Assembly (NCBI GenBank): GCA_015486685.1
Contig: WFRC01000349.1
Span: 1 to 27,783 of the forward strand
Origin: a candidate division WOR-3 bacterium
GTDB taxonomy: Bacteria; Hydrothermota; UBA3072; WFRC01
Direction of reading: 5' to 3'
Length of the DNA stretch: 27,783 nt
Below the pieces are notes generated by a model, which was not told where the DNA came from, made no database searches, and worked only from the letters and a program-made list of their open reading frames with translations. This document shows, piece by piece, positions 5,249 to 26,798 of this stretch (positions are counted from its first letter, which is position 1; every line of letters starts with the position of its first letter). The translations under genes and the position numbers were made by a program.

Positions 5249-7213
5249 ATGGCTAAAGCAGATACTGTATCTTCTCTCAAAATTAAGGCAAAGGCATCAA
5301 TCTCAAAAGGAGATTATAAAACAGCAATTGCCTTATATGAAAAGATTATAGGTATCGCCTCTGATGACCCAAATATACTTAATGAAATGGGGGAATTATA
5401 CAGGAAAGCAGGAAAAAGCGAAAAAGCAAAAGAAACCTTCTGGAAGGCACTCGAACAGTATAAAAAACTTGATTATTACACAAACGCAATTGCCATTGCC
5501 CAAAAACTTTTGAAATTAGGTGCAGACCAATTAGAACTGTATTCTACCCTTGGTGAGTTATACGACAAACAGGGATTAATAGGTGATGCATTATCTTCAT
5601 ATAACGAACTTGCAGAAAGGTTTAGGCTCGAAGGGGATATGGGAGGGGTTCTGGAAACATACAAAAAGATGGTCAATCTTACACCAAAAAAGATTGATAT
5701 AAGAATGAAATTAGTAGACCTATTCCTTGCCCAGAAGATGCAAGACAATGCAATAGACCAATTAGAACAAATAGAGAAGATATTCAGAGAACAGGGCAGA
5801 GTTGATGATGCAGATGGCATTAGAATGAGAATTTCTTCATTATCAGGAAAAGCCCCAAAGGTTGAAGAAAAAACAAAACCGAAGAAACAAGCACCTGTTA
5901 AAGAAGAAAAAACGCCTGAACCCGAAGAAATCGTTTTTGAACAGACAGCAGGACCAGAGATATTTGAAGAGACACTTACATCCGAAGAAATCCAGGAGTC
6001 TCTGGAACAAGCAATATCTACATCTGCTTCTGAGAAAGCAGAAAAGGAAGCAGAAGAAAAGGTCCCTGTACCCCAGAGTGAATTAACAGAAAACTTATCG
6101 GATTGGTCAAATTGGGTAGGACTTGCTGACCTCTATATGTCTGTTGGCTCTCTGGATGAAGCAATTGAATATTATTATAAGGCTGCGGATGCCTATTTTG
6201 ATGAAAAGGATTATGAAAATGCACTCCCTATATATAATAAAATTGCAGAATTGAAACCATTTGAATTAATGCCGAGGCAGAAGATTATTCAGATAGCCAC
6301 GAAACTAAACAATAGAAAACTTGCAGTAGAAGGATATATAAGTCTCGCTGATTGTTTAAGCAGAAGGGGTGCAAAGATTGAATCTATAAATGCATTAAAT
6401 AGGGCATTAAAACTTGCTCCAAAAAATACAGAGATAAGGGAAAAAATTAGAGAATTAGAAGGAAAAGCACCCTCTCCACCACCACCTAAAAAAACAGAAA
6501 AGCCTGAACAAAAAAAGAAAGAGAAAGTTGAATCCATTATAAGTTTTGATGATTTGCTTAAAGAAGAGGTTAAACCGAAACCGAAATTTACTGTTGAAGA
6601 TAAGAAGGAAGTAAAGGCAGGAGAGCAATTTTATGATTTAAACGAATTACTTGATGAATTTAAGGAAGGCGTTTTCCAGAACATTTCAAAAGAGGATTTT
6701 ACAAGCCACTATGATTTAGGAATTACTTACAAAGAAATGGGATTGATTGATGAAGCAATTCACGAGTTTGAAATTGCGTCTGCCGGGAAACGAGAAAAAT
6801 TAAAATCACTTGAAATGCTGGCTGTATGTTTTGAAGAAAAGGGGAATATAGACAAGGCAGAAAAACTTTACTTAAAAGGACTTGCAACCGAAGGATATAA
6901 ACCCGAGGAATATTTAGGGTTTCACTATCGTTTAGGTGTTTTATATCAAAATCAAAAAAGGTTTGAAGAGGCATTAAAAGAATTTGGAAAAGTCATTGAA
7001 ATTGAGCCAACATTTAGAGATATCAAAAAGAGATTGCAAAATATAAGGTCTCAGGTACCTCCTAAAATTGAGAAGAAAAAAGAAGTGCAAGAAACTCCAG
7101 AAGAGAATATTTTAGAACAAATGAGAGAAGAAATTGCAGAAGGTCTAGATGAAAAGAAAGAGGAAGGTAAGACTAAAAAGAAGTCCAAAAAAGATAGAAT
7201 TTCCTATGTATAA
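5249..7213 (+). CDS. Large TPR protein, SgmX-like (three TPR clusters joined by charged linkers)
   Basis: N-terminal, middle and C-terminal TPR clusters separated by Glu/Lys/Pro-rich linkers. HYDLGITYKEMGLIDEAIHEFE matches the motif I recall from SgmX-type proteins (not database-checked). Ends KDRISYV. Confidence 0.75.
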   Translation: MAKADTVSSLKIKAKASISKGDYKTAIALYEKIIGIASDDPNILNEMGELYRKAGKSEKAKETFWKALEQYKKLDYYTNAIAIAQKLLKLGADQLELYSTLGELYDKQGLIGDALSSYNELAERFRLEGDMGGVLETYKKMVNLTPKKIDIRMKLVDLFLAQKMQDNAIDQLEQIEKIFREQGRVDDADGIRMRISSLSGKAPKVEEKTKPKKQAPVKEEKTPEPEEIVFEQTAGPEIFEETLTSEEIQESLEQAISTSASEKAEKEAEEKVPVPQSELTENLSDWSNWVGLADLYMSVGSLDEAIEYYYKAADAYFDEKDYENALPIYNKIAELKPFELMPRQKIIQIATKLNNRKLAVEGYISLADCLSRRGAKIESINALNRALKLAPKNTEIREKIRELEGKAPSPPPPKKTEKPEQKKKEKVESIISFDDLLKEEVKPKPKFTVEDKKEVKAGEQFYDLNELLDEFKEGVFQNISKEDFTSHYDLGITYKEMGLIDEAIHEFEIASAGKREKLKSLEMLAVCFEEKGNIDKAEKLYLKGLATEGYKPEEYLGFHYRLGVLYQNQKRFEEALKEFGKVIEIEPTFRDIKKRLQNIRSQVPPKIEKKKEVQETPEENILEQMREEIAEGLDEKKEEGKTKKKSKKDRISYV

Positions 7214-9628: not shown

Positions 9629-12600
9629 ATGCTTTTTTTATCATTATTATTCGCTTTTGATGCACCATTTTCGATCCCCGAACTAAAAAAATTGGGGAAT
9701 GAAATTGGACAAAGTGCACACAAAAAAACAATAGAAATCTTAAAAAAACATCCGGAATATAGAAAATATTTCTGGAGACCTGCAAAAAAGCCTTTTAAGA
9801 TTTCCAAAAAAAATCTTAAATTGATGGAACCTGAAACCCTGAATGTGCTTGTTTTAAGGGTACAGTTCTTGCTTGATGATTCAACTGACCCGCTGGATAG
9901 TCTGACAACAGGGAATGGAAAAATGCAGTATACACCGCAAGGGCATCCTTGCGATACAGTTGTAGATTCTACTACGGGAGATACATCATACACAAGGAGT
10001 TTGTATTATGACCCGCCTCACGATTCACTGTATTTCCACCATTTAATGGAATACCTTCATAATTATTACTGGGAGGTCTCTCACCACCTGCTTTATATCA
10101 AGTATAAAATTTATCCGGAAGGGGCTGAAACGGCATATACTGTTCCGCATAAAGCAAGTTATTACGGAAATCCCAATATGTGGACTTTTGGATTATTTAG
10201 TATATTAAAAGATGCCATTCAGGTAGCAGACCAGGACCCTGTGAATATTGATTTTTCTGATTTTGACAGGGTGATTCTATTCCATGCAGGTTCAATGTGG
10301 CAAACAGATGTAGCAGGCAATACCCCCTATGATTTACCTGCTGTTTATATAGAAGGGGCAGATGAAATATTTGGCGAACCCATTTATGCAAATAACAGAA
10401 CAGATTCGATAAACTCCGGTGTAATATATGCTGAAACAGCATTTCAGGATGGTTATCCTGCCTTTCTTCAGGGTGGATTGTGCCACGAATTTGGGCATAC
10501 ATTGGGGTTTTTGGATTTGTATGATGTATCAGGTGAATCAATGGGTATGGGAGGATGGGCAATAATGGGAACTGGAAACTGGAATATGGATGGACTCGTG
10601 CCTCCAAGGGCATCAGGATGGCATAGATTACTTGTCGGTTTTGATGATACTCTAGTCATAAATCATGACACAACAGGTGTAAAAATTCACTGGACAGGCT
10701 CTTCAAATACACCAAGATTAATAAAAATTCCTATTAACGCACATGAGTATTTTCTCATTGAAAACAGGTATACATATATGAATTCTGACACTGTCAGAGA
10801 TTTTGACCCCTGTCAATCCTGTGGGGTAGATTCCAATGGATTCAGGGTATGGAAGGACAATGTTCTGACAAAGGTTAATGACTATGAAGTTTCATTACCC
10901 CCTGACCCAAATAGTGGTGGACTTGCAATCTATCATATTGATGACAATAAGATTGCCAGAGACGATACATTTAATATGATAAATGCAGGTTATCCAAAAG
11001 GTGTCGCGATGGAAGAGGCTGATGGTATTCAAGATTTTCAAAGACCATTTAGTGAAGGTATATATAGCAATAAAGAATTATGGGAAACATTTTACGGAAG
11101 CCCCTATGATGTATTTTCAAGTTATGGTAGATTGGATTCATTTACAGAATCTTCCCGACCGAATACAGATGATAATGACTCAGGAAAAACTTATATAGCC
11201 ATTACAAATATTAGTCATCCAGGAGAAATAATGCATTTTGATGTCCACTTTCGCAACAGGATAACGGGCTTTCCTGTTTATGTTGACCATCCCAGCGATG
11301 TGATTTCACCAATGCCTGTTCACATTGGAGATTCGTTATATATACTTCAGGGCACATATTATGGGGATTTATTTCTCATTTCTCCTGATGGCGAAAGACC
11401 ATATTTTGGGAAAATAGACAATAATACATATTCAACACCTGCAATAGGAGACCTGGATGGAAATGGAACAGATGAAGTTGCATCCGCAGATTTGAACGGT
11501 ATTGTTTATGCATGGGAATTAGACAGTACACATCAAAAATTGGCAGAATATCAAACAAATGGTCCTATATATGGAAGTCCATCTATCGCCGACATTGATA
11601 ATGATGGTAAGGCTGAAATTCTGGTAGGTACCGATGATAATTATCTATATGCACTTTCTTTGCCAGATACCGGAACACATAGAACACTCGTCGCAAAACC
11701 AGGCTTTCCTGTTTATCTGGGCCAATCTATATGGAGTGTCCCTCTTTTTTATAAGGGTTATATCTATGCCCTTACCGCTGATGGCACTGTCTATAAGATT
11801 TCACCCACAGGAAAAATAATATGGAGAAGGGGTAAAGAAAATCTTGCATTTACTACCTCATCGCCTGTGATTGGTGATATTGATAGAGATGGCACAGATG
11901 AAATTATGTATATCACTGGCGGAGGCAAAGTATGGTGTATATCCACAAAAGATTCTGTATCGGATTCAATTAAATGGGTATACCAGATGCAAGACACAAC
12001 ATTTGTTTCTTCTCCTGCACTTGGTGATATAGATGGAGACGGCTATCCTGATATTGTTTTTGCGGGAAAAGATAAAATTTATGCCCTGAATAAAAATGGT
12101 GTATTACTGGATAATTTCCCTGTGGATATGAAATTTGGAGACTGGATTCAATCCTCCATTGTGCTTGCAGACTTAAATGATGATGGAAAAGAGGATATAA
12201 TATTTGGGAGCCCTGTGGCAGGTGTACATATTCTGAATTATCAGGGAAAAGATATTGACCTCTCCCCTATTTCTACAGGTGCAACAGTTTGGGCAACTCC
12301 GCTTATCTATGATTTGAACAATGATAGTAATACCACAGAAATCCTATTTGGCGCCGAAGATTCAATGATTTATGGATATAAATTTATCAGCAAAATTAAA
12401 AGCAACTGGCAAATGGAGTTTAAAAATCCTGCTCACCAGATGATATATTCCGACAGTCTGCTGCCTCCGTCGCAAACACCTGACACACTCTTTTACCATA
12501 GAAAATTTTATATATACCCGAGCCCCATAACGAAAAATTCCGCAACAATCAGGTATTATCTGGGGGATAAAGCAAAATCTGTAAAGATTAAAATATTTAA

Positions 12601-12781
12601 TATTGCAGGCGATTTAATAAAGGATATGGATGGCACTACTGAAAACGGAGATAATGACAATTCCGTTGATTTTACAAATATTGCTAATGGGGTTTACATA
12701 TTAACCATTAATGTAAAATTCACAAATGGAAAAATTATCCAGGATAAAAAAAGATTCGCCATTATGAAAGGAGGTTTTTAA
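9629..12781 (+). CDS. Secreted M6 (immune inhibitor A-like) metalloprotease with FG-GAP repeats and a T9SS/FlgD-Ig-like C-terminal domain
   Basis: HEFGH zinc motif with LDLYD and Met-turn IMGTGNW. About six S.P.(I/L)GD(I/L)D.DG repeats. C-terminal YIYPSP...IKIFNIAG...NGVY. SD AAGGAG at 9619-9624. Confidence 0.85.
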   Translation: MLFLSLLFAFDAPFSIPELKKLGNEIGQSAHKKTIEILKKHPEYRKYFWRPAKKPFKISKKNLKLMEPETLNVLVLRVQFLLDDSTDPLDSLTTGNGKMQYTPQGHPCDTVVDSTTGDTSYTRSLYYDPPHDSLYFHHLMEYLHNYYWEVSHHLLYIKYKIYPEGAETAYTVPHKASYYGNPNMWTFGLFSILKDAIQVADQDPVNIDFSDFDRVILFHAGSMWQTDVAGNTPYDLPAVYIEGADEIFGEPIYANNRTDSINSGVIYAETAFQDGYPAFLQGGLCHEFGHTLGFLDLYDVSGESMGMGGWAIMGTGNWNMDGLVPPRASGWHRLLVGFDDTLVINHDTTGVKIHWTGSSNTPRLIKIPINAHEYFLIENRYTYMNSDTVRDFDPCQSCGVDSNGFRVWKDNVLTKVNDYEVSLPPDPNSGGLAIYHIDDNKIARDDTFNMINAGYPKGVAMEEADGIQDFQRPFSEGIYSNKELWETFYGSPYDVFSSYGRLDSFTESSRPNTDDNDSGKTYIAITNISHPGEIMHFDVHFRNRITGFPVYVDHPSDVISPMPVHIGDSLYILQGTYYGDLFLISPDGERPYFGKIDNNTYSTPAIGDLDGNGTDEVASADLNGIVYAWELDSTHQKLAEYQTNGPIYGSPSIADIDNDGKAEILVGTDDNYLYALSLPDTGTHRTLVAKPGFPVYLGQSIWSVPLFYKGYIYALTADGTVYKISPTGKIIWRRGKENLAFTTSSPVIGDIDRDGTDEIMYITGGGKVWCISTKDSVSDSIKWVYQMQDTTFVSSPALGDIDGDGYPDIVFAGKDKIYALNKNGVLLDNFPVDMKFGDWIQSSIVLADLNDDGKEDIIFGSPVAGVHILNYQGKDIDLSPISTGATVWATPLIYDLNNDSNTTEILFGAEDSMIYGYKFISKIKSNWQMEFKNPAHQMIYSDSLLPPSQTPDTLFYHRKFYIYPSPITKNSATIRYYLGDKAKSVKIKIFNIAGDLIKDMDGTTENGDNDNSVDFTNIANGVYILTINVKFTNGKIIQDKKRFAIMKGGF

Positions 12782-22576: not shown

Positions 22577-23260
22577 ATGAGAATCCTTTTAGTTGAAGAT
22601 GATAAAAACATAGCTGGCTTCATTAAGAAAGGGCTAACTGAAGAGAATTACGCTGTGGATGTGTTTTATGACGGGGAAGATGGAGCATATTGGGCAAAGG
22701 AAAATGATTATGACCTTATTATTTTAGATATTATGCTTCCTAAAAAGGATGGAATAGAGGTGTGCAAGGAGATTCGCAGAAAGAATATTATTACTCCTAT
22801 AATTATGCTCACAGCAAAGGATACAATTGAGGATAAAATAAAAGGGCTTGATGAAGGAGCAGATGATTACCTTACAAAACCTTTCTCCTTTGAGGAACTT
22901 TTAGCAAGGGTAAGGGCACTTCTGAGAAGAACACAGAAGTACAAAACAAAAACCTTAAAAGTAGCAGACCTTGAACTGGACCCTGCTATGCGTAAAGTAA
23001 CCCGTGCAGGAAAAGAAATAACACTCACAGGGAAAGAATACGCACTACTTGAGTATATGATGCGAAATAAGGAGAGAGTATTGACAGAGGTTATGATTAT
23101 AGAACACATTTGGGATATAAATTATGACCCTATGACAAATGTTGTTAATGTATATATTCACCATTTAAGGCAAAAAATAGATAAGGGATTTGAGAAAAAA
23201 CTTATTTATACTATCCGTGGTTCAGGATATGTAATCAAAGAGGGTGATAAGAATATTTAA
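22577..23260 (+). CDS. OmpR/PhoB-family response regulator (CusR/CopR-like)
   Basis: LLVEDD, ILDIMLP (phospho-Asp), MLTAKD, GADDYLTKPF, winged helix ending TIRGSGY. Confidence 0.93.
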   Translation: MRILLVEDDKNIAGFIKKGLTEENYAVDVFYDGEDGAYWAKENDYDLIILDIMLPKKDGIEVCKEIRRKNIITPIIMLTAKDTIEDKIKGLDEGADDYLTKPFSFEELLARVRALLRRTQKYKTKTLKVADLELDPAMRKVTRAGKEITLTGKEYALLEYMMRNKERVLTEVMIIEHIWDINYDPMTNVVNVYIHHLRQKIDKGFEKKLIYTIRGSGYVIKEGDKNI

Positions 23261-24659
23261 TTCAATCAGACTAAAATTAACTCTTTGGTATGTAGTAACT
23301 GTTGGGATATTGATATTAGCCTTTGTTTTTGCACTATATTTAAGTTTAAAGGTAAGTCTTGAAAAAGGTGTAGATATATCCCTTCGCACATTTGAAGAAG
23401 AATTAGAAGATGCTTTGCATAGAAGTGCCTATCGGAAATGGAAAAAAGTTGTCAGTAAAGAAAGCGGAGAAGAAATCCCTATAAATATAATGTATGTTCA
23501 GATTTTAAGAATAGTTGACACAGGTAAACAACCGAGCATCTTTGTAAAATCAGCGGCACTGAAGAGTAAAACCTTACCTATTTCTACCACAGCTTATAAG
23601 ACAGCCCTCAAGAACGGAAGGTCATTTGAGACTGTGGAAGGCTTCCATAAACATCCATTAAGAATACTGACCTCCCTTATTAAAAGTAGATGGGGTACAC
23701 CTTTTGTGCTTCAAATAGGAACCCCCTTGAAAGGAATTTTTAATGCACTGGGAAAATTTCTAATTATTCTACTCGTATCTGTCCCTATATTACTAATTCT
23801 TTCAGCATTTGGTGGATATTTTTTCGTTAAAAGAGCCTTTTTCCCTGTAAAAAAGATTGTGAAAACTGTGAAAAGAATTACAGCAGAGAATCTTTCACAT
23901 CGGGTTGAACCGATTAATAGTAAAGATGAAATCGGCGAATTGGCAGAGACTTTTAACGATATGATATCACGATTAGAAAAGTCTTTTGAACATATAAAAC
24001 AATTCTCCAGCGATGTTTCTCACGAACTTAAAACACCCCTAACCGCCATAAAAGGAGAGATTGAAGTAACTTTAAGAAGGAATAGAAAAAAGGATGAGTA
24101 TAAAAAAACACTTAAAAATTTATTGGAGGATATTAATAGACTGGAAGAAATCATTGAAAATTTATTTTTACTTTCACGGATGGATTCTGAAAATCTGAAA
24201 TTTTTGCCCAAAAAATTCGCCCTTGAAGAAACTTTGCTTGAAGCATTTGAGGATATGGAGGCTATTGCAACAAAGAAAAAGGTGCATCTTATCTTGAAGA
24301 ATATTCAAGAGATGGAACTAAAGGGTGAAAGCACTCTAATCAAAAGGGTTTTTACCAATCTGATTAACAATGCAATAAAATATACGCCTGCGGGAGGAAA
24401 AATAGAAATATCCTTGAAGAAAGAAGGTAACTTTGCTAAATTTATCATTAAAGATACAGGGATTGGTATTCCACAGGAAGAAATTCCACATATATTTGAC
24501 AGATTTTATAGAGTAGAAAAGGCACGGTCTCGAGAAGCAGGGGGAAGCGGATTAGGACTTGCCATTGTAAAATGGATAGTTGAAGCCCATAAAGGAAAAA
24601 TAGAAGTAAAAAGCAAAGCAGGTGAAGGCAGTATTTTTATAGTATCTTTTCCCTTCTGA
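23244..24659 (+). CDS. HAMP-domain sensor histidine kinase (CusS-like)
   Basis: Two transmembrane segments, DEIGELAETFN, SHELKTPL, NLINNAIKYT, DTGIGI, GSGLGLAI. GTG start overlaps the regulator gene. Confidence 0.92.
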   Translation: MIRIFNSIRLKLTLWYVVTVGILILAFVFALYLSLKVSLEKGVDISLRTFEEELEDALHRSAYRKWKKVVSKESGEEIPINIMYVQILRIVDTGKQPSIFVKSAALKSKTLPISTTAYKTALKNGRSFETVEGFHKHPLRILTSLIKSRWGTPFVLQIGTPLKGIFNALGKFLIILLVSVPILLILSAFGGYFFVKRAFFPVKKIVKTVKRITAENLSHRVEPINSKDEIGELAETFNDMISRLEKSFEHIKQFSSDVSHELKTPLTAIKGEIEVTLRRNRKKDEYKKTLKNLLEDINRLEEIIENLFLLSRMDSENLKFLPKKFALEETLLEAFEDMEAIATKKKVHLILKNIQEMELKGESTLIKRVFTNLINNAIKYTPAGGKIEISLKKEGNFAKFIIKDTGIGIPQEEIPHIFDRFYRVEKARSREAGGSGLGLAIVKWIVEAHKGKIEVKSKAGEGSIFIVSFPF

Positions 24660-25195
24660 CCCCAATGTCTATTATGCGTCATGCTGAATTCATTTCAGCA
24701 TCTCTCTTTTCCCTGTCATTGCGAGGCTCAATTTATTGAGCCGTGGCAATCTCATTCAATAGGCATCTTCCTTTTTATCTCCCTCCCTTGACGGGAGGAA
24801 TTAAGGGAGGATGAATCTGGAGTGCATTGACCGTGTCAATGCGTCGTTAATCTGTTAATTCCGCATTATTCTTGTCACGAGTCACGGTCACGCATCACGG
24901 TTTTTATTACTTTCCACTTCTCAGTTCCTACTTCTTACTTCCCAGTTCATCTGGGAGTAGGAGGGGCTTCCCAGCCCCGATAATTTCTCTATTTCCTTTT
25001 CCCTGGAATTAAAGTCTTTTTAATTTTTCATTTTGCACTTTTCATTTTTCACTAAATCTTCTCCCTCCCTTAATGTCTACCTGTGCGTGTCCGCACGCAG
25101 ACAGGGGAAGGATAACCTTCTATTTCTCCCCCTCTGGGGGAGATTAAGAGAGGGTGTCTTCTGTTGTTTGAGTTTTTTAATTTTTATGACTGACC
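24660..25195. repeat. Intergenic repeat mosaic
   Basis: GTCA-type elements at 24677-24704 and 24715-24753, CTCCC/GGGAG palindromes at 24779-24813 and 25126-25156, 106-nt block at 24876-24981, TGCGTG/CACGCA hairpin at 25079-25105. Confidence 0.9.
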
Positions 25196-25216
25196 TTAAG
25201 GATATTATTAAAAACT

Positions 25217-25260
25217 TTTAATTTTTATTTAACCCTGATTTAATAATAAGGGTGTATAAT
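25217..25260 (+). promoter_or_regulatory. Activator-dependent promoter with three 11-bp-phased TTTAA boxes
   Basis: TTTAA at 25217, 25228 and 25239. Perfect TATAAT at 25255-25260. No recognisable -35, and the boxes overlap its position. Confidence 0.6.
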
Positions 25261-25274
25261 CAGGTATGAGAAAT

Positions 25275-25308
25275 AAGAAAACAAATGGCAAGTTGTCCAG
25301 CAAGCGTT
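25275..25308 (+). repeat. Left arm of the long inverted repeat flanking the PepSY gene
   Basis: AAGAAAACAAATGGCAAGTTGTCC-AG-CAAGCGTT is the reverse complement of 26084-26115 apart from the 2-nt AG insert. Confidence 0.95.
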
Positions 25309-25340
25309 ATATGAAACTCAACCTTAAAAAGGAGGTAACT

Positions 25341-26072
25341 ATGAAACAAACAAAACTTACCTTGCAAAGATTGTTGATTGTTACATTGATAGGATTGATA
25401 GCATTTGGCAGCAATCTTTTTGCAGGTGAAAGAACCGAGAAACATTTCAAAGGTAGCATTCGGGTCAAAAGAGGTGTTAATTACACCAGACTTGCTAAGA
25501 TCTCTATCCTTGATGTTAACAGAACCATTATGAATAAATACCCTAAATCCACAGTAAAGAGTATTAGTCTTCAAGAAGAAAACGGGTATCTTGTTTATGG
25601 GGTTTTGTTGATAACGAATGGTAAACATCTTGATGTAAAGGTAGATGCAGGTAATGGAAAGATTGTAAAGGTAGATAATGATATGGAAAACGGGAATGCA
25701 GTAGAAAACGAGAATCAGAATGAAAACAACGATGACAATAACAAACAATCTCCTATGTACAAAAGTTCAATCTCAATTACAGGTTCACAGGAAAGAACTA
25801 TGTATAGTCTTGCCAAAATCTCCATAAATGACGCGATAAATTCCGCTACATCAAAGTTTTACGGAAAGGTAGTAAAGGTTAGTTTGGACAATGAAAATGG
25901 AAGTCTTATCTATAGTGTAGGAGTGGCTGGCTCTAATGGAAAAATAACAGATGTAAAGATAGATGCGGGTAATGGCAAAATTCTATCAAGTGATAGCGGA
26001 GGTGATAAGGAAGAATTAAATCGGAATGAAAAAGGCAATGAGACTAATGAAAATGAAAACAGTGAGGATTAA
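25341..26072 (+). CDS. Secreted protein with two PepSY-like domains
   Basis: SD AAGGAGGT 4 nt before ATG 25341, canonical signal peptide, two LAKIS...(Y/G)L(V/I)Y.V...DVK.DAGNGKI repeats, Asn/Glu-rich linkers. Confidence 0.85.
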   Translation: MKQTKLTLQRLLIVTLIGLIAFGSNLFAGERTEKHFKGSIRVKRGVNYTRLAKISILDVNRTIMNKYPKSTVKSISLQEENGYLVYGVLLITNGKHLDVKVDAGNGKIVKVDNDMENGNAVENENQNENNDDNNKQSPMYKSSISITGSQERTMYSLAKISINDAINSATSKFYGKVVKVSLDNENGSLIYSVGVAGSNGKITDVKIDAGNGKILSSDSGGDKEELNRNEKGNETNENENSED

Positions 26073-26083
26073 GTAAAATGAAA

Positions 26084-26115
26084 AACGCTTGGGACAACTT
26101 GCCATTTGTTTTCTT
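26084..26115 (-). repeat. Right arm of the long inverted repeat flanking the PepSY gene
   Basis: AACGCTTG-GGACAACTTGCCATTTGTTTTCTT, starting 12 nt after the stop codon. Confidence 0.95.
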
Positions 26116-26156
26116 GCATTCCTTAAAGTGAAAACAAAAACTAAAAGGAGGTTATA

Positions 26157-26798
26157 ATGTTTAATCAACAGAAAACAAGGATTATATTGGTTATTGCTGT
26201 AATGTTAATTGTTGCAGGTTTTGTAGGATGCAGTAAGAAAAAAGCATCTTCTAAGAATAGGCCCGCTTCTCCAAAAATGCAGCAACAGACAGCAAGTAAG
26301 TCTGTAGAAAAACCAGTAGCACCTGAGAAGAATCCAATAGGTGATATACCTGATAATCAGGCATTTGTTAAGTATACTTCTTTACAGGGAGGTTATGAAC
26401 TTGTTGCACCCGAAGGTTGGGCACGGACAACAAATGGTATGAATGTTACTTTTATAGATAAACTTGATGGGGTCTCTGTTAGCATTACAAGTTCAGCAAC
26501 AGCACCTAATATAAGAAGTATTCGCACCAATCAGGCGGAAAAACTCAAAAAAACAGGGCGGGCAGTAGTTATTAAGGGTATTAAGGATGTTAAACTTAAA
26601 GGTGGAACTGCAATTCTTATGATGTATGAATCCAATTCAGAACCGAACCCGGTAACCAACAAGCAGGTGCGTCTTGAAAATAATACCTATTTCTACTATA
26701 AAAGCGGAAAGATTGCAGAATTAAGATTGTGGGCGCCTGTGGGTGCAGATAATGTTGATCAGTGGAATAAAATCTCAAATAGTTTCAGGTGGAAATAA
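26157..26798 (+). CDS. Putative lipoprotein (possibly PsbP/DcrB-like fold)
   Basis: SD AAGGAGGT, lipobox-like FVGC after a hydrophobic segment, low-complexity linker, NP.GDIPDNQAFV and PEGWAR motifs. The fold assignment is a guess. Confidence 0.7.
   Translation: MFNQQKTRIILVIAVMLIVAGFVGCSKKKASSKNRPASPKMQQQTASKSVEKPVAPEKNPIGDIPDNQAFVKYTSLQGGYELVAPEGWARTTNGMNVTFIDKLDGVSVSITSSATAPNIRSIRTNQAEKLKKTGRAVVIKGIKDVKLKGGTAILMMYESNSEPNPVTNKQVRLENNTYFYYKSGKIAELRLWAPVGADNVDQWNKISNSFRWK

What the first reader, a model, noticed from the sequence alone, without database searches (positions are those of the whole stretch)
25275..26115. A 32-bp inverted repeat precisely encloses the RBS and coding sequence of the PepSY gene
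Seen: 25275-25308 and 26084-26115 pair as a perfect 24 bp, a 2-nt bulge and 8 bp, 775 nt apart. The left arm starts about 15 nt after the -10 box, and the right arm 12 nt after the stop. Neither arm folds well locally or resembles the other repeats, and the promoter and the downstream RBS lie outside. Inference, three options: (a) a long-range 5'/3' UTR stem, like rRNA processing stems, cut by RNase III to release a stabilised PepSY mRNA and set its ratio to the downstream ABC genes; (b) an invertible cassette switching the gene on and off without moving the promoter, with the recombinase acting in trans; (c) a miniature transposon carrying cargo. The bulge fits (a) best.
Basis: partly seen in the sequence, partly recalled or inferred. 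Interest (0 to 1): 0.78.

Follow-up and report, generated by a model that had tools for sequence, protein, structure and literature searches.

The report
RNA helix enclosing a PepSY gene
A perfect 24+8-bp inverted repeat brackets an optional PepSY gene lodged in the leader of a two-component-regulated lipoprotein/ABC-transporter operon; it most likely forms a long messenger-RNA helix that loops that gene out, a known kind of feature, here in a bacterium that appears to lack RNase III.

Summary
The inverted repeat is real. Arms 25275-25298 and 26092-26115 are a perfect 24 bp, followed by an AG bulge and 8 more bp. It is far beyond chance and has only these two copies in the 2.36-Mb MAG.

It encloses the RBS and CDS of a two-domain PepSY gene (25341-26072). 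No terminator is predicted before the downstream lipoprotein/ABC genes. PepSY-less relatives carry the same promoter and short leader directly before the lipoprotein gene, so PepSY plus its arms is an ~850-nt optional module inside a leader.

In the only ortholog with both flanks (L012, 55% aa identity) the arms are alignable and still pair. The sense-strand duplex is -31.6 kcal/mol, with 34 pairs of which 8 are G·U. Shuffles give -20.2±3.2, the antisense strand -18.0 and non-cognate arms about -24.

I favour a sense-strand long-range mRNA helix (confidence 0.5).

Inversion and transposon readings found no support: one orientation in contigs, no recombinase in the window, unique arms. A relic of the module's insertion remains a serious rival.

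The scan has reported similar gene-enclosing helices on other DNA.

The parts
25217..25244 (+). Three direct TTTAAY boxes at 11-nt spacing (25217, 25228, 25239). Likely binding site of the adjacent OmpR-family response regulator, in place of a -35.
   Evidence: Read. The block is conserved in L012, L010, L150, L151 and in L064's lipoprotein promoter. The regulator assignment is inference.
25255..25260 (+). -10 hexamer TATAAT. The predicted transcript start is about 25266-25268.
   Evidence: Sequence. Invariant in the alignment with L012 and L010. No experimental TSS.
25275..25298 (+). Left arm, outer 24 nt. Its first 11 nt (AAGAAAACAAA) belong to the ancestral short leader.
   Evidence: Leader homology.
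25299..25300 (+). Unpaired AG (bulge) in the left arm.
25301..25308 (+). Left arm, inner 8 nt (CAAGCGTT).
25277..25285 (+). Left copy of the 9-nt direct repeat GAAAACAAA, which marks the edge of the PepSY module.
25331..25335 (+). Shine-Dalgarno GGAGG of the PepSY gene. It is left free by the helix.
25341..26072 (+). PepSY gene: 243 aa, a signal peptide plus two PepSY domains.
   Evidence: Pfam PF03413, E 3e-18, two stretches. Orthologs at 55-57% identity.
26084..26091 (+). Right arm, inner 8 nt (AACGCTTG).
26092..26115 (+). Right arm, outer 24 nt. Its last 11 nt are an inverted copy of the leader segment.
26130..26138 (+). Right copy of the 9-nt direct repeat GAAAACAAA. From here the sequence aligns again with PepSY-less leaders.
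26147..26151 (+). Shine-Dalgarno GGAGG of the lipoprotein gene.
26157..26798 (+). PsbP-related lipoprotein gene, the first gene of the ABC/FtsX transporter module that follows.
   Evidence: PsbP_2, weak. (homologs named PsbP-related). (conserved lipoprotein, two ABC ATPases and an FtsX/MacB permease).
22577..24659 (+). OmpR-family response regulator (22577-23260) and HAMP/HisKA histidine kinase (23244-24659), the presumed regulators of the promoter.
   Evidence: The same regulator-kinase pair lies upstream in L017, L063 and L150.

Best explanation
**What it is.** The two arms are the halves of a long-range helix in the sense mRNA.

**Predicted transcript.** Transcription starts at the regulator-dependent promoter (-10 at 25255-25260), with the 5' end near 25266-25268. 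It runs through PepSY into the lipoprotein/ABC genes without a terminator.

**The helix.** Once the right arm (26084-26115) is made, it pairs with the left arm (25275-25308). This closes the whole PepSY cistron into a loop of about 775 nt. Both Shine-Dalgarno sites stay free. The helix begins 12 nt after the stop codon, close to the expected downstream edge of a terminating ribosome.

**Likely effect (inferred).**
- It buries the 5' end of the message about 8-10 nt from its start. That would hinder 5'-end-dependent attack by the RNase E/G-type enzyme and leader cleavage by RNase Y.
- It gives PepSY a structured 3' boundary.
- The optional PepSY cistron would then be expressed and decay as an insulated unit, and its ratio to the transporter genes would be set at RNA level.
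- RNase III cutting is unlikely here, because the lineage appears to lack the enzyme.

**Shown versus inferred.**
- Shown: the complementarity, its position, its uniqueness, and its sense-strand-specific persistence in an ortholog.
- Inferred: co-transcription, helix formation in vivo, and every downstream effect.
For: - The helix is exact and far beyond chance. It dominates the MFE and centroid fold of the 881-nt RNA.
- Neither arm has local structure, here or in L012 (z about -0.1 to -0.3).
- No terminator-like site lies between the PepSY stop and the lipoprotein start.
- More distant PepSY homologs that stand alone (L015, L016, L064) do carry a hairpin-plus-T terminator and show no 5'/3' pairing.
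- L012 (55% aa identity) has the promoter, the leader and both arms alignable with the window. In register, 18 of 24 outer pairs are kept, with 4 changes on both sides that restore a pair and 4 A-to-G changes giving G·U. About 7 of the 8 inner pairs are also kept (hand alignment; seen as a 7-bp block).
- The L012 arm-limited duplex is -31.6 kcal/mol against shuffles of -20.2±3.2, with 0 of 500 as good.
- That duplex has 34 pairs, 8 of them G·U. The antisense RNA reaches only -18.0.
- Cognate arms pair better than swapped arms, which reach -24.3 and -24.9.
- RNase Y and an RNase E/G-type gene are present.
- Precedents exist. A 14-bp 5'/3'-UTR interaction modulates RNase Y cleavage of B. subtilis hbs mRNA (PMC5737220). 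[quoted passage not shown]
Against: - There are no RNA data at all.
- Only one ortholog has both flanks.
- Against a null in which a once-perfect repeat decays independently in each arm, its 18 of 24 pairs is only marginal (P about 0.05; compensated doubles P about 0.11).
- The window's helix has 32 Watson-Crick pairs and no G·U. That looks more like a young or DNA-templated repeat than an old RNA helix.
- A roughly 90%-identical relative in another vent metagenome (X2) has unlike sequence where the left arm should be. With its visible part of the right arm, it gives no significant duplex: -8.7, z +0.6. This rests on a partly unseen sequence.
- RNase III, the usual reader of such helices, was not found.
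Confidence: 0.5

Rival explanations
1. Structural relic. The repeat is a by-product of the rearrangement that put the PepSY module into the operon leader. This could have been an insertion with an inverted copy of the target, or fusion of two paralogous regulator-dependent promoters and leaders. It has no present function.
For: - Close relatives of L012 with the same promoter (88-89% identical over 68-101 nt) lack the module. L151 has a leader of about 40 nt directly before the lipoprotein gene. L150 has about 150 nt of unrelated, repeat-bearing sequence in its place.
- Removing 25286-26138 from the window gives a leader that aligns end to end with the leaders of L064 and L151.
- The module is flanked by a 9-nt direct repeat. 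The outer 11 bp of the helix are the leader and an inverted copy of it.
- A perfect Watson-Crick repeat is what a DNA-level event produces.
- The independent-decay null is rejected only marginally for L012.
- X2 seems to do without the left arm, and part of its population has lost most of PepSY.
Against: - The arms are homologous in the window and L012, so the repeat predates a 45% protein divergence.
- An unconstrained repeat should have decayed in both lineages, yet the window has 0 mismatches in 32 pairs.
- L012 keeps a duplex well above shuffles. It is sense-strand specific and better with its own partner than with the window's.
Confidence: 0.25
2. Invertible DNA cassette. A recombinase encoded elsewhere flips 25309-26083 between the arms, switching PepSY off while the promoter still reads into the transporter genes.
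For: - Perfect arms of 24 bp are in the size range of known invertons.
- Recombination between arms would keep them identical.
- The enclosed segment carries its own RBS but no promoter.
Against: - In run X1, one contig (2330 nt, depth 167) spans both arms with 0 differences in the window's orientation. No strand-changing joint was listed at the arms in any of the four runs. Contigs can miss rare variants.
- No recombinase or invertase is in the 27.8-kb window.
- In L012 the longest identical inverted stretches are about 7 bp, so the feature persists where recombination could not work.
- The inverted orientation would expose no gene.
Confidence: 0.07
3. Mobile cassette. The arms are terminal inverted repeats of a non-autonomous element carrying PepSY as cargo (MITE- or MIC-like), mobilised in trans.
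For: - The module is present or absent at one site among relatives.
- A 9-nt direct repeat lies near its edges.
- The genome is rich in mobile repeats and carries RAYT-like transposase genes.
Against: - The arms occur only here in the MAG and resemble none of its repeat families.
- The layout is not TSD-TIR...TIR-TSD. The left direct repeat lies inside the left arm, and the right one lies 14 nt beyond the right arm.
- A 9-mer match in this AT-rich context is only marginally unexpected (my estimate, about 0.03-0.05).
- The same module sits at the same site in two lineages 45% diverged in protein sequence, which suggests inheritance and loss rather than repeated insertion.
Confidence: 0.08

Closest known systems
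5'/3'-UTR interaction of Bacillus subtilis hbs mRNA (Braun, Durand and Condon 2017, PMC5737220)
   Same: A long-range pairing between the leader and the region after the stop codon of one cistron. It modulates endonuclease (RNase Y) access to the leader. This organism also has RNase Y.
   Different: hbs has 14 bp around a monocistronic gene. Here there are 32 bp around the first cistron of an operon, with transcription apparently continuing. No cleavage site is known here.
icaR mRNA 5'-3' UTR interaction in Staphylococcus aureus (Ruiz de los Mozos et al. 2013, PMC3868564)
   Same: The 3' flank of a cistron pairs with its 5' UTR, making a long intramolecular duplex.
   Different: In icaR the 3' UTR masks the Shine-Dalgarno site and the duplex is cut by RNase III. 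Here the SD (25331-25335) is outside the helix, and no RNase III gene was found.
Long-range intramolecular RNase III targets in B. subtilis mRNAs, and rRNA leader-trailer processing stems (bioRxiv 10.1101/2023.03.12.532304)
   Same: At least two helical turns of duplex formed by segments hundreds of nucleotides apart that enclose a functional unit.
   Different: The defining enzyme is not detectable in this MAG or in its class. No cleavage ends are available.
Invertons (phase-variable segments flanked by inverted repeats)
   Same: A perfect inverted repeat of 24 bp flanking a segment of under 1 kb.
   Different: Invertons usually enclose a promoter, lie near or depend on a recombinase, and show both orientations in reads. 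None of this was seen here.
Helix-bracketed gene cassettes noted earlier by this scan (e1-2574035, e1-2367533; IVS-like modules)
   Same: An exchangeable gene module enclosed by a long-range inverted repeat and dropped into an operon.
   Different: Those carry a four-helix-bundle IVS-family gene and repeat arrays. This one carries a PepSY gene and unique arms. Those notes were not checked here.

Membership tests
RNase III-processed long-range stem (rRNA-type or mRNA-type) | Continuous or nearly continuous duplex of about 20 bp or more. | tested here: met
   24 bp, a 2-nt bulge, then 8 bp.
RNase III-processed long-range stem (rRNA-type or mRNA-type) | RNase III encoded by the organism. | tested here: not met
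   PF14622, PF00636 and TIGR02191 give no match in G000 (95% complete). TIGR02191 gives 0 of 25 same-class and 2 of 5 same-phylum genomes. A tblastn with those two proteins has a best E of 0.14. Caveats: this is a MAG, and one bacterial control genome did not ring.
RNase III-processed long-range stem (rRNA-type or mRNA-type) | Staggered paired cleavage ends in both arms. | not testable with these tools
   No RNA run is listed for this sequence.
5'/3'-UTR interaction of a bacterial mRNA (hbs or icaR type) | Both segments on one transcript, in the 5' leader and just after the stop codon. | tested here: inconclusive
   Position fits. The left arm is 14 nt after the -10 and the right arm 12 nt after the stop, with no terminator-like site between. 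There is no transcript map.
5'/3'-UTR interaction of a bacterial mRNA (hbs or icaR type) | Pairing kept in orthologs by changes that preserve base pairs in the sense strand. | tested here: inconclusive
   Only one ortholog is available. Its duplex is -31.6 against shuffles of -20.2±3.2, with 8 G·U and an antisense value of -18.0. The independent-decay null gives P about 0.05.
5'/3'-UTR interaction of a bacterial mRNA (hbs or icaR type) | Overlap with the ribosome-binding site (icaR type). | tested here: not met
   The SD at 25331-25335 lies 23 nt downstream of the left arm and is unpaired with the right arm.
Inverton / invertible DNA switch | Both orientations present in sequencing data. | tested here: not met
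   One orientation only in Logan contigs of X1, and no strand-changing joint at the arms. Rare variants cannot be excluded from contigs.
Inverton / invertible DNA switch | A site-specific recombinase nearby. | tested here: not met
   No integrase, invertase or transposase domain in any ORF of 100 aa or more scanned in the window. 5249-7213, read as a TPR protein by the first-stage reader, was not scanned.
MITE / mobile insertion cassette | Several copies of the terminal repeats in the genome. | tested here: not met
   Only the two arms are found in 2.36 Mb.
MITE / mobile insertion cassette | Target-site duplication directly outside the terminal repeats. | tested here: not met
   The 9-nt direct repeat exists, but one copy lies inside the left arm and the other 14 nt beyond the right arm.
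Known structured RNA family (Rfam) | A match to a covariance model. | tested here: not met
   Only a chance-level mir-593 hit (E 0.44) at 25094-25181, outside the feature.

The most novel reading that the evidence does not exclude
The PepSY unit may be a helix-bracketed, exchangeable gene module that can sit in, or be lost from, the leader of a regulated operon. On this reading its long helix lets the cell treat the inserted cistron as a separate RNA domain. The helix would be processed, or shielded, by a double-strand-recognising activity other than RNase III in a bacterial class that has lost that enzyme. That would be an mRNA counterpart of rRNA intervening sequences with a new processing enzyme.
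Probability: 0.1. Interest if true: 0.7.

Novelty: new member of a known kind. Interest (0 to 1): 0.36.

Why it matters
If the helix forms and acts in vivo, it shows how an accessory gene can be slotted between a promoter and an operon without disturbing either. The insert is folded out as its own RNA domain.

It would also be a clean natural case for asking what long mRNA duplexes do in bacteria without RNase III. The present/absent PepSY module gives ready-made natural controls.

If it is only a relic, it still documents how operon leaders gain and lose whole genes.

Tried and rejected
- **Rfam.** Scan of 24600-26400 at E up to 1 gave nothing relevant.
- **RNA evidence.** No RNA holder is listed for the sequence.
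- **Close genomes.** The MAG is alone in its family. 60 class and phylum relatives have no homolog of this PepSY protein, so no genome-level synteny test was possible.
- **Broad duplex test.** A 90 x 70 nt RNAduplex on 17 PepSY loci put only the window out of range (z -9.6). L012 was not significant by that loose measure (z -1.55) and all other loci were near 0. The arm-limited test was used instead.
- **L010, L011 and L018.** These are the same lineage as L012, but L010 and L011 stop 6 nt after the stop codon and L018 stops inside the gene. I considered that an inverted repeat broke the assembly there and rejected it. A k=31 unitig would run about 30 nt into an arm.
- **L064.** It has a 13-nt perfect inverted repeat around its PepSY gene. 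The repeat is built from two palindromes (TATATA, GTAC) in two promoters, so I judged it chance.
- **L014.** It shows only a 7-bp complement, which is at chance level.
- **L150 leader.** It shows no remnant long-range stem.
- **ATG 25266.** It is in frame and could start a leaderless, longer protein. It is not conserved in L012, L010 or L151, so I rejected it.
- **X2.** I could not read its contigs directly. Its arm sequences are inferred from loose ends and indel rows, and most mismatch rows were not shown.
- **First shuffle script.** It timed out.
- **Complex prediction, structure prediction and fold search.** Not used, because nothing in the question turned on them.

Full report
**1. Observation**

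The repeat is exactly as described.
- Arms 25275-25298 and 26092-26115 are 24 nt and fully complementary. After an unpaired AG, 25301-25308 pairs with 26084-26091.
- At up to three mismatches the arm occurs twice in the window, against zero in 100 shuffles.
- In the whole 2.36-Mb, 385-contig MAG nothing else resembles it.
- The enclosed gene starts at ATG 25341, with SD at 25331-25335, and stops at 26072. It encodes a 243-aa protein with a signal peptide and two PepSY domains.
- Neither arm has local structure. The long-range helix appears in both the MFE and the centroid of the 881-nt RNA.

**2. Context**

- Upstream lie an OmpR-type response regulator and a HAMP/HisKA kinase. About 600 nt of very high-copy repeats follow (depth up to 20,000 in the source-like metagenome).
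- The promoter has three TTTAAY boxes at 11-nt spacing and a TATAAT at 25255-25260.
- Downstream, with no terminator-like site in between, come a PsbP-related lipoprotein, two ABC ATPases and, in relatives, an FtsX/MacB permease.
- This lipoprotein-ABC module occurs in many phyla, often with a PepSY gene just upstream.
- No ORF of 100 aa or more scanned in the window carries a recombinase or transposase domain; 5249-7213 was not scanned.

**3. PepSY plus its arms is an optional module inside a short leader**

- The closest PepSY orthologs (55-57% aa) are L010, L011 and L018 (one lineage, contigs cut at or before the 3' flank) and L012, which has both flanks.
- Two relatives of L012 have the same promoter but no PepSY. 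Promoter identity is 89% over 101 nt for L150 and 88% over 68 nt for L151.
- In L151 a leader of about 40 nt runs straight into the lipoprotein gene. In L150 about 150 nt of unrelated, repeat-bearing sequence takes the module's place.
- In all of these the shared leader ends at the same point, 7 nt into the left arm.
- Deleting 25286-26138 from the window gives a leader that aligns end to end with L151 and with the lipoprotein promoter and leader of L064, a distant MAG.
- The module is bounded by a 9-nt direct repeat, GAAAACAAA (25277-25285 and 26130-26138). The outer 11 bp of the helix are the old leader paired with an inverted copy of it at the module's 3' end.
- More distant PepSY homologs that stand alone have their own terminator and no 5'/3' pairing.

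**4. Is the pairing maintained?**

- L012's promoter, leader and both arms align with the window's almost without gaps.
- In register, 18 of 24 outer pairs survive. Four were changed on both sides in ways that keep a pair. Four are A-to-G changes giving G·U. By hand alignment about 7 of the 8 inner pairs also survive; one search shows them as a 7-bp block.
- Limited to about 50 nt per arm, the L012 duplex is -31.6 kcal/mol against -20.2±3.2 for shuffles, with 0 of 500 as good.
- It has 34 pairs, 8 of them G·U. The antisense strand reaches only -18.0.
- Swapped arms (window with L012) reach about -24, less than either cognate pair.
- This points to a helix read in the sense RNA.
- The caveat is real. 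Under a null in which a once-perfect repeat decays independently in both arms, 18 of 24 has P about 0.05 and four compensated doubles P about 0.11. There is also only one informative ortholog.

**5. A closer relative is discordant**

Run X2 is another hydrothermal-vent metagenome. It holds a PepSY gene about 90% identical to the window's.
- Its contig is unlike the window for the 34 nt before 25306, where it carries an SD-like GGAGGTG.
- Its right flank follows the window only to 26106.
- With what is visible, no significant duplex forms.
- Its upstream sequence also departs from the leader shared by all the other loci, so its 5' context is probably rearranged.
- A 96-nt contig of higher depth joins 25552 in frame to about 26267, deleting most of PepSY.
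- I could not read these contigs directly, so I give this low weight.

**6. Tests of the DNA-level readings**

- In run X1, one contig (2330 nt, depth 167) covers 25244-26500 with no difference. No joint that changes strand was listed at the arms in any run.
- The MAG has 41 perfect inverted repeats of 20 nt or more within 5 kb. Almost all are copies of multi-copy repeat families.
- Three of them flank roughly 305-aa IS200-like Y1 transposase genes, the layout of REP-associated tyrosine transposases.
- The PepSY arms are the only perfect pair of 24 nt or more with exactly two copies, apart from one transposase-flanking pair.

**7. The enzyme**

- RNase III was not found with PF14622, PF00636 or TIGR02191 in this MAG (95% complete).
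- TIGR02191 also finds none in 25 same-class genomes, and in 2 of 5 same-phylum genomes.
- A tblastn with those two proteins gives a best E of 0.14.
- The organism is a bacterium: seven sigma-70 family genes and no TBP.
- It has RNase Y and an RNase E/G-type enzyme. No RNase J scores above cut-off.

**8. Reading**

- I favour a sense-strand mRNA helix that loops out the optional PepSY cistron.
- It would sequester the message's 5' end about 8-10 nt from its start and give PepSY a structured 3' edge.
- The closest analogue is the 14-bp 5'/3'-UTR interaction that modulates RNase Y cleavage of hbs mRNA (PMC5737220).
- A looser analogue is the set of long-range duplexes of B. subtilis and S. aureus mRNAs (bioRxiv 10.1101/2023.03.12.532304; PMC3868564).
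- The perfect Watson-Crick state of the window's helix, the module's insertion-like borders and the X2 relative keep a functionless relic as a serious rival.
- Inversion and active transposition are unsupported.

**9. Verdict**

A real feature of a known kind, in an uncommon setting. The scan has reported similar gene-enclosing helices on other DNA. Interest is moderate.

Noticed in passing
G000 whole genome; relatives G001-G030: No RNase III gene was detectable in this MAG with three family models and a tblastn. The RNase III equivalog model (TIGR02191) also found none in 25 same-class genomes, many over 90% complete, while 2 of 5 same-phylum genomes have a clear one. The class may have lost RNase III.
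   Followed up: partly
window 24660-25223: The 600-nt spacer between the kinase gene and the promoter is made of very high-copy repeats. Summed contig depth is up to about 20,000, against 167 for the unique flank. Many contigs join, skip or loop back here.
   Followed up: partly
G000:C263:1-1100 (L152), C337:900-1950 (L153), C385:1900-3000 (L154): Three ORFs of about 305 aa with an IS200-like Y1 transposase domain are each flanked by 26-28-nt perfect inverted repeats of multi-copy families. This is the layout of REP-associated tyrosine transposases (RAYTs), and it probably explains the repeat load of this genome.
   Followed up: partly
G000:C129:1063-3196, C201:1538-3577, C226:4460-7197: Ordinary genes are bracketed by long composite inverted repeats built from repeat-family sequence. 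They are a PolyA_pol/CCA-adding-type enzyme (118-nt arms, 86% identity), a Band 7 protein, and a three-ORF block (53+43+23-nt arms).
   Followed up: no
window 25552 joined to about 26267, in run X2: A 96-nt contig of higher depth than the full-length path joins PepSY codon 71 in frame to lipoprotein codon 38. This deletes most of PepSY, the right arm and the lipoprotein signal peptide. It may be a population-level deletion or fusion variant.
   Followed up: no
window 25217-25244; L064:2412-2440; L151:4-32: A promoter block with TTTAAY boxes at 11-nt spacing is conserved before the lipoprotein/ABC module in MAGs labelled as different phyla. It also appears, in looser form, before stand-alone PepSY genes (L013, L064). 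PepSY and the transporter may belong to one regulon.
   Followed up: partly
window 26208-26181, minus strand: A near-consensus promoter-like site (TTAACA-16-TATAAT, 11 of 12) lies inside the start of the lipoprotein gene and points back towards the right arm and PepSY. It could give an antisense RNA, but it may be chance in AT-rich DNA.
   Followed up: no
window 25322-25335 and 26120-26151: Each of the two Shine-Dalgarno sites is preceded by a CCTTAAA motif that can pair weakly with it. In both cases the motif lies just downstream of an arm.
   Followed up: no
window 9629-12781: A 1050-aa FG-GAP/beta-propeller protein ends in a Por_Secre_tail (type IX secretion sorting) domain, which hints at the lineage's affinities.
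   Followed up: no
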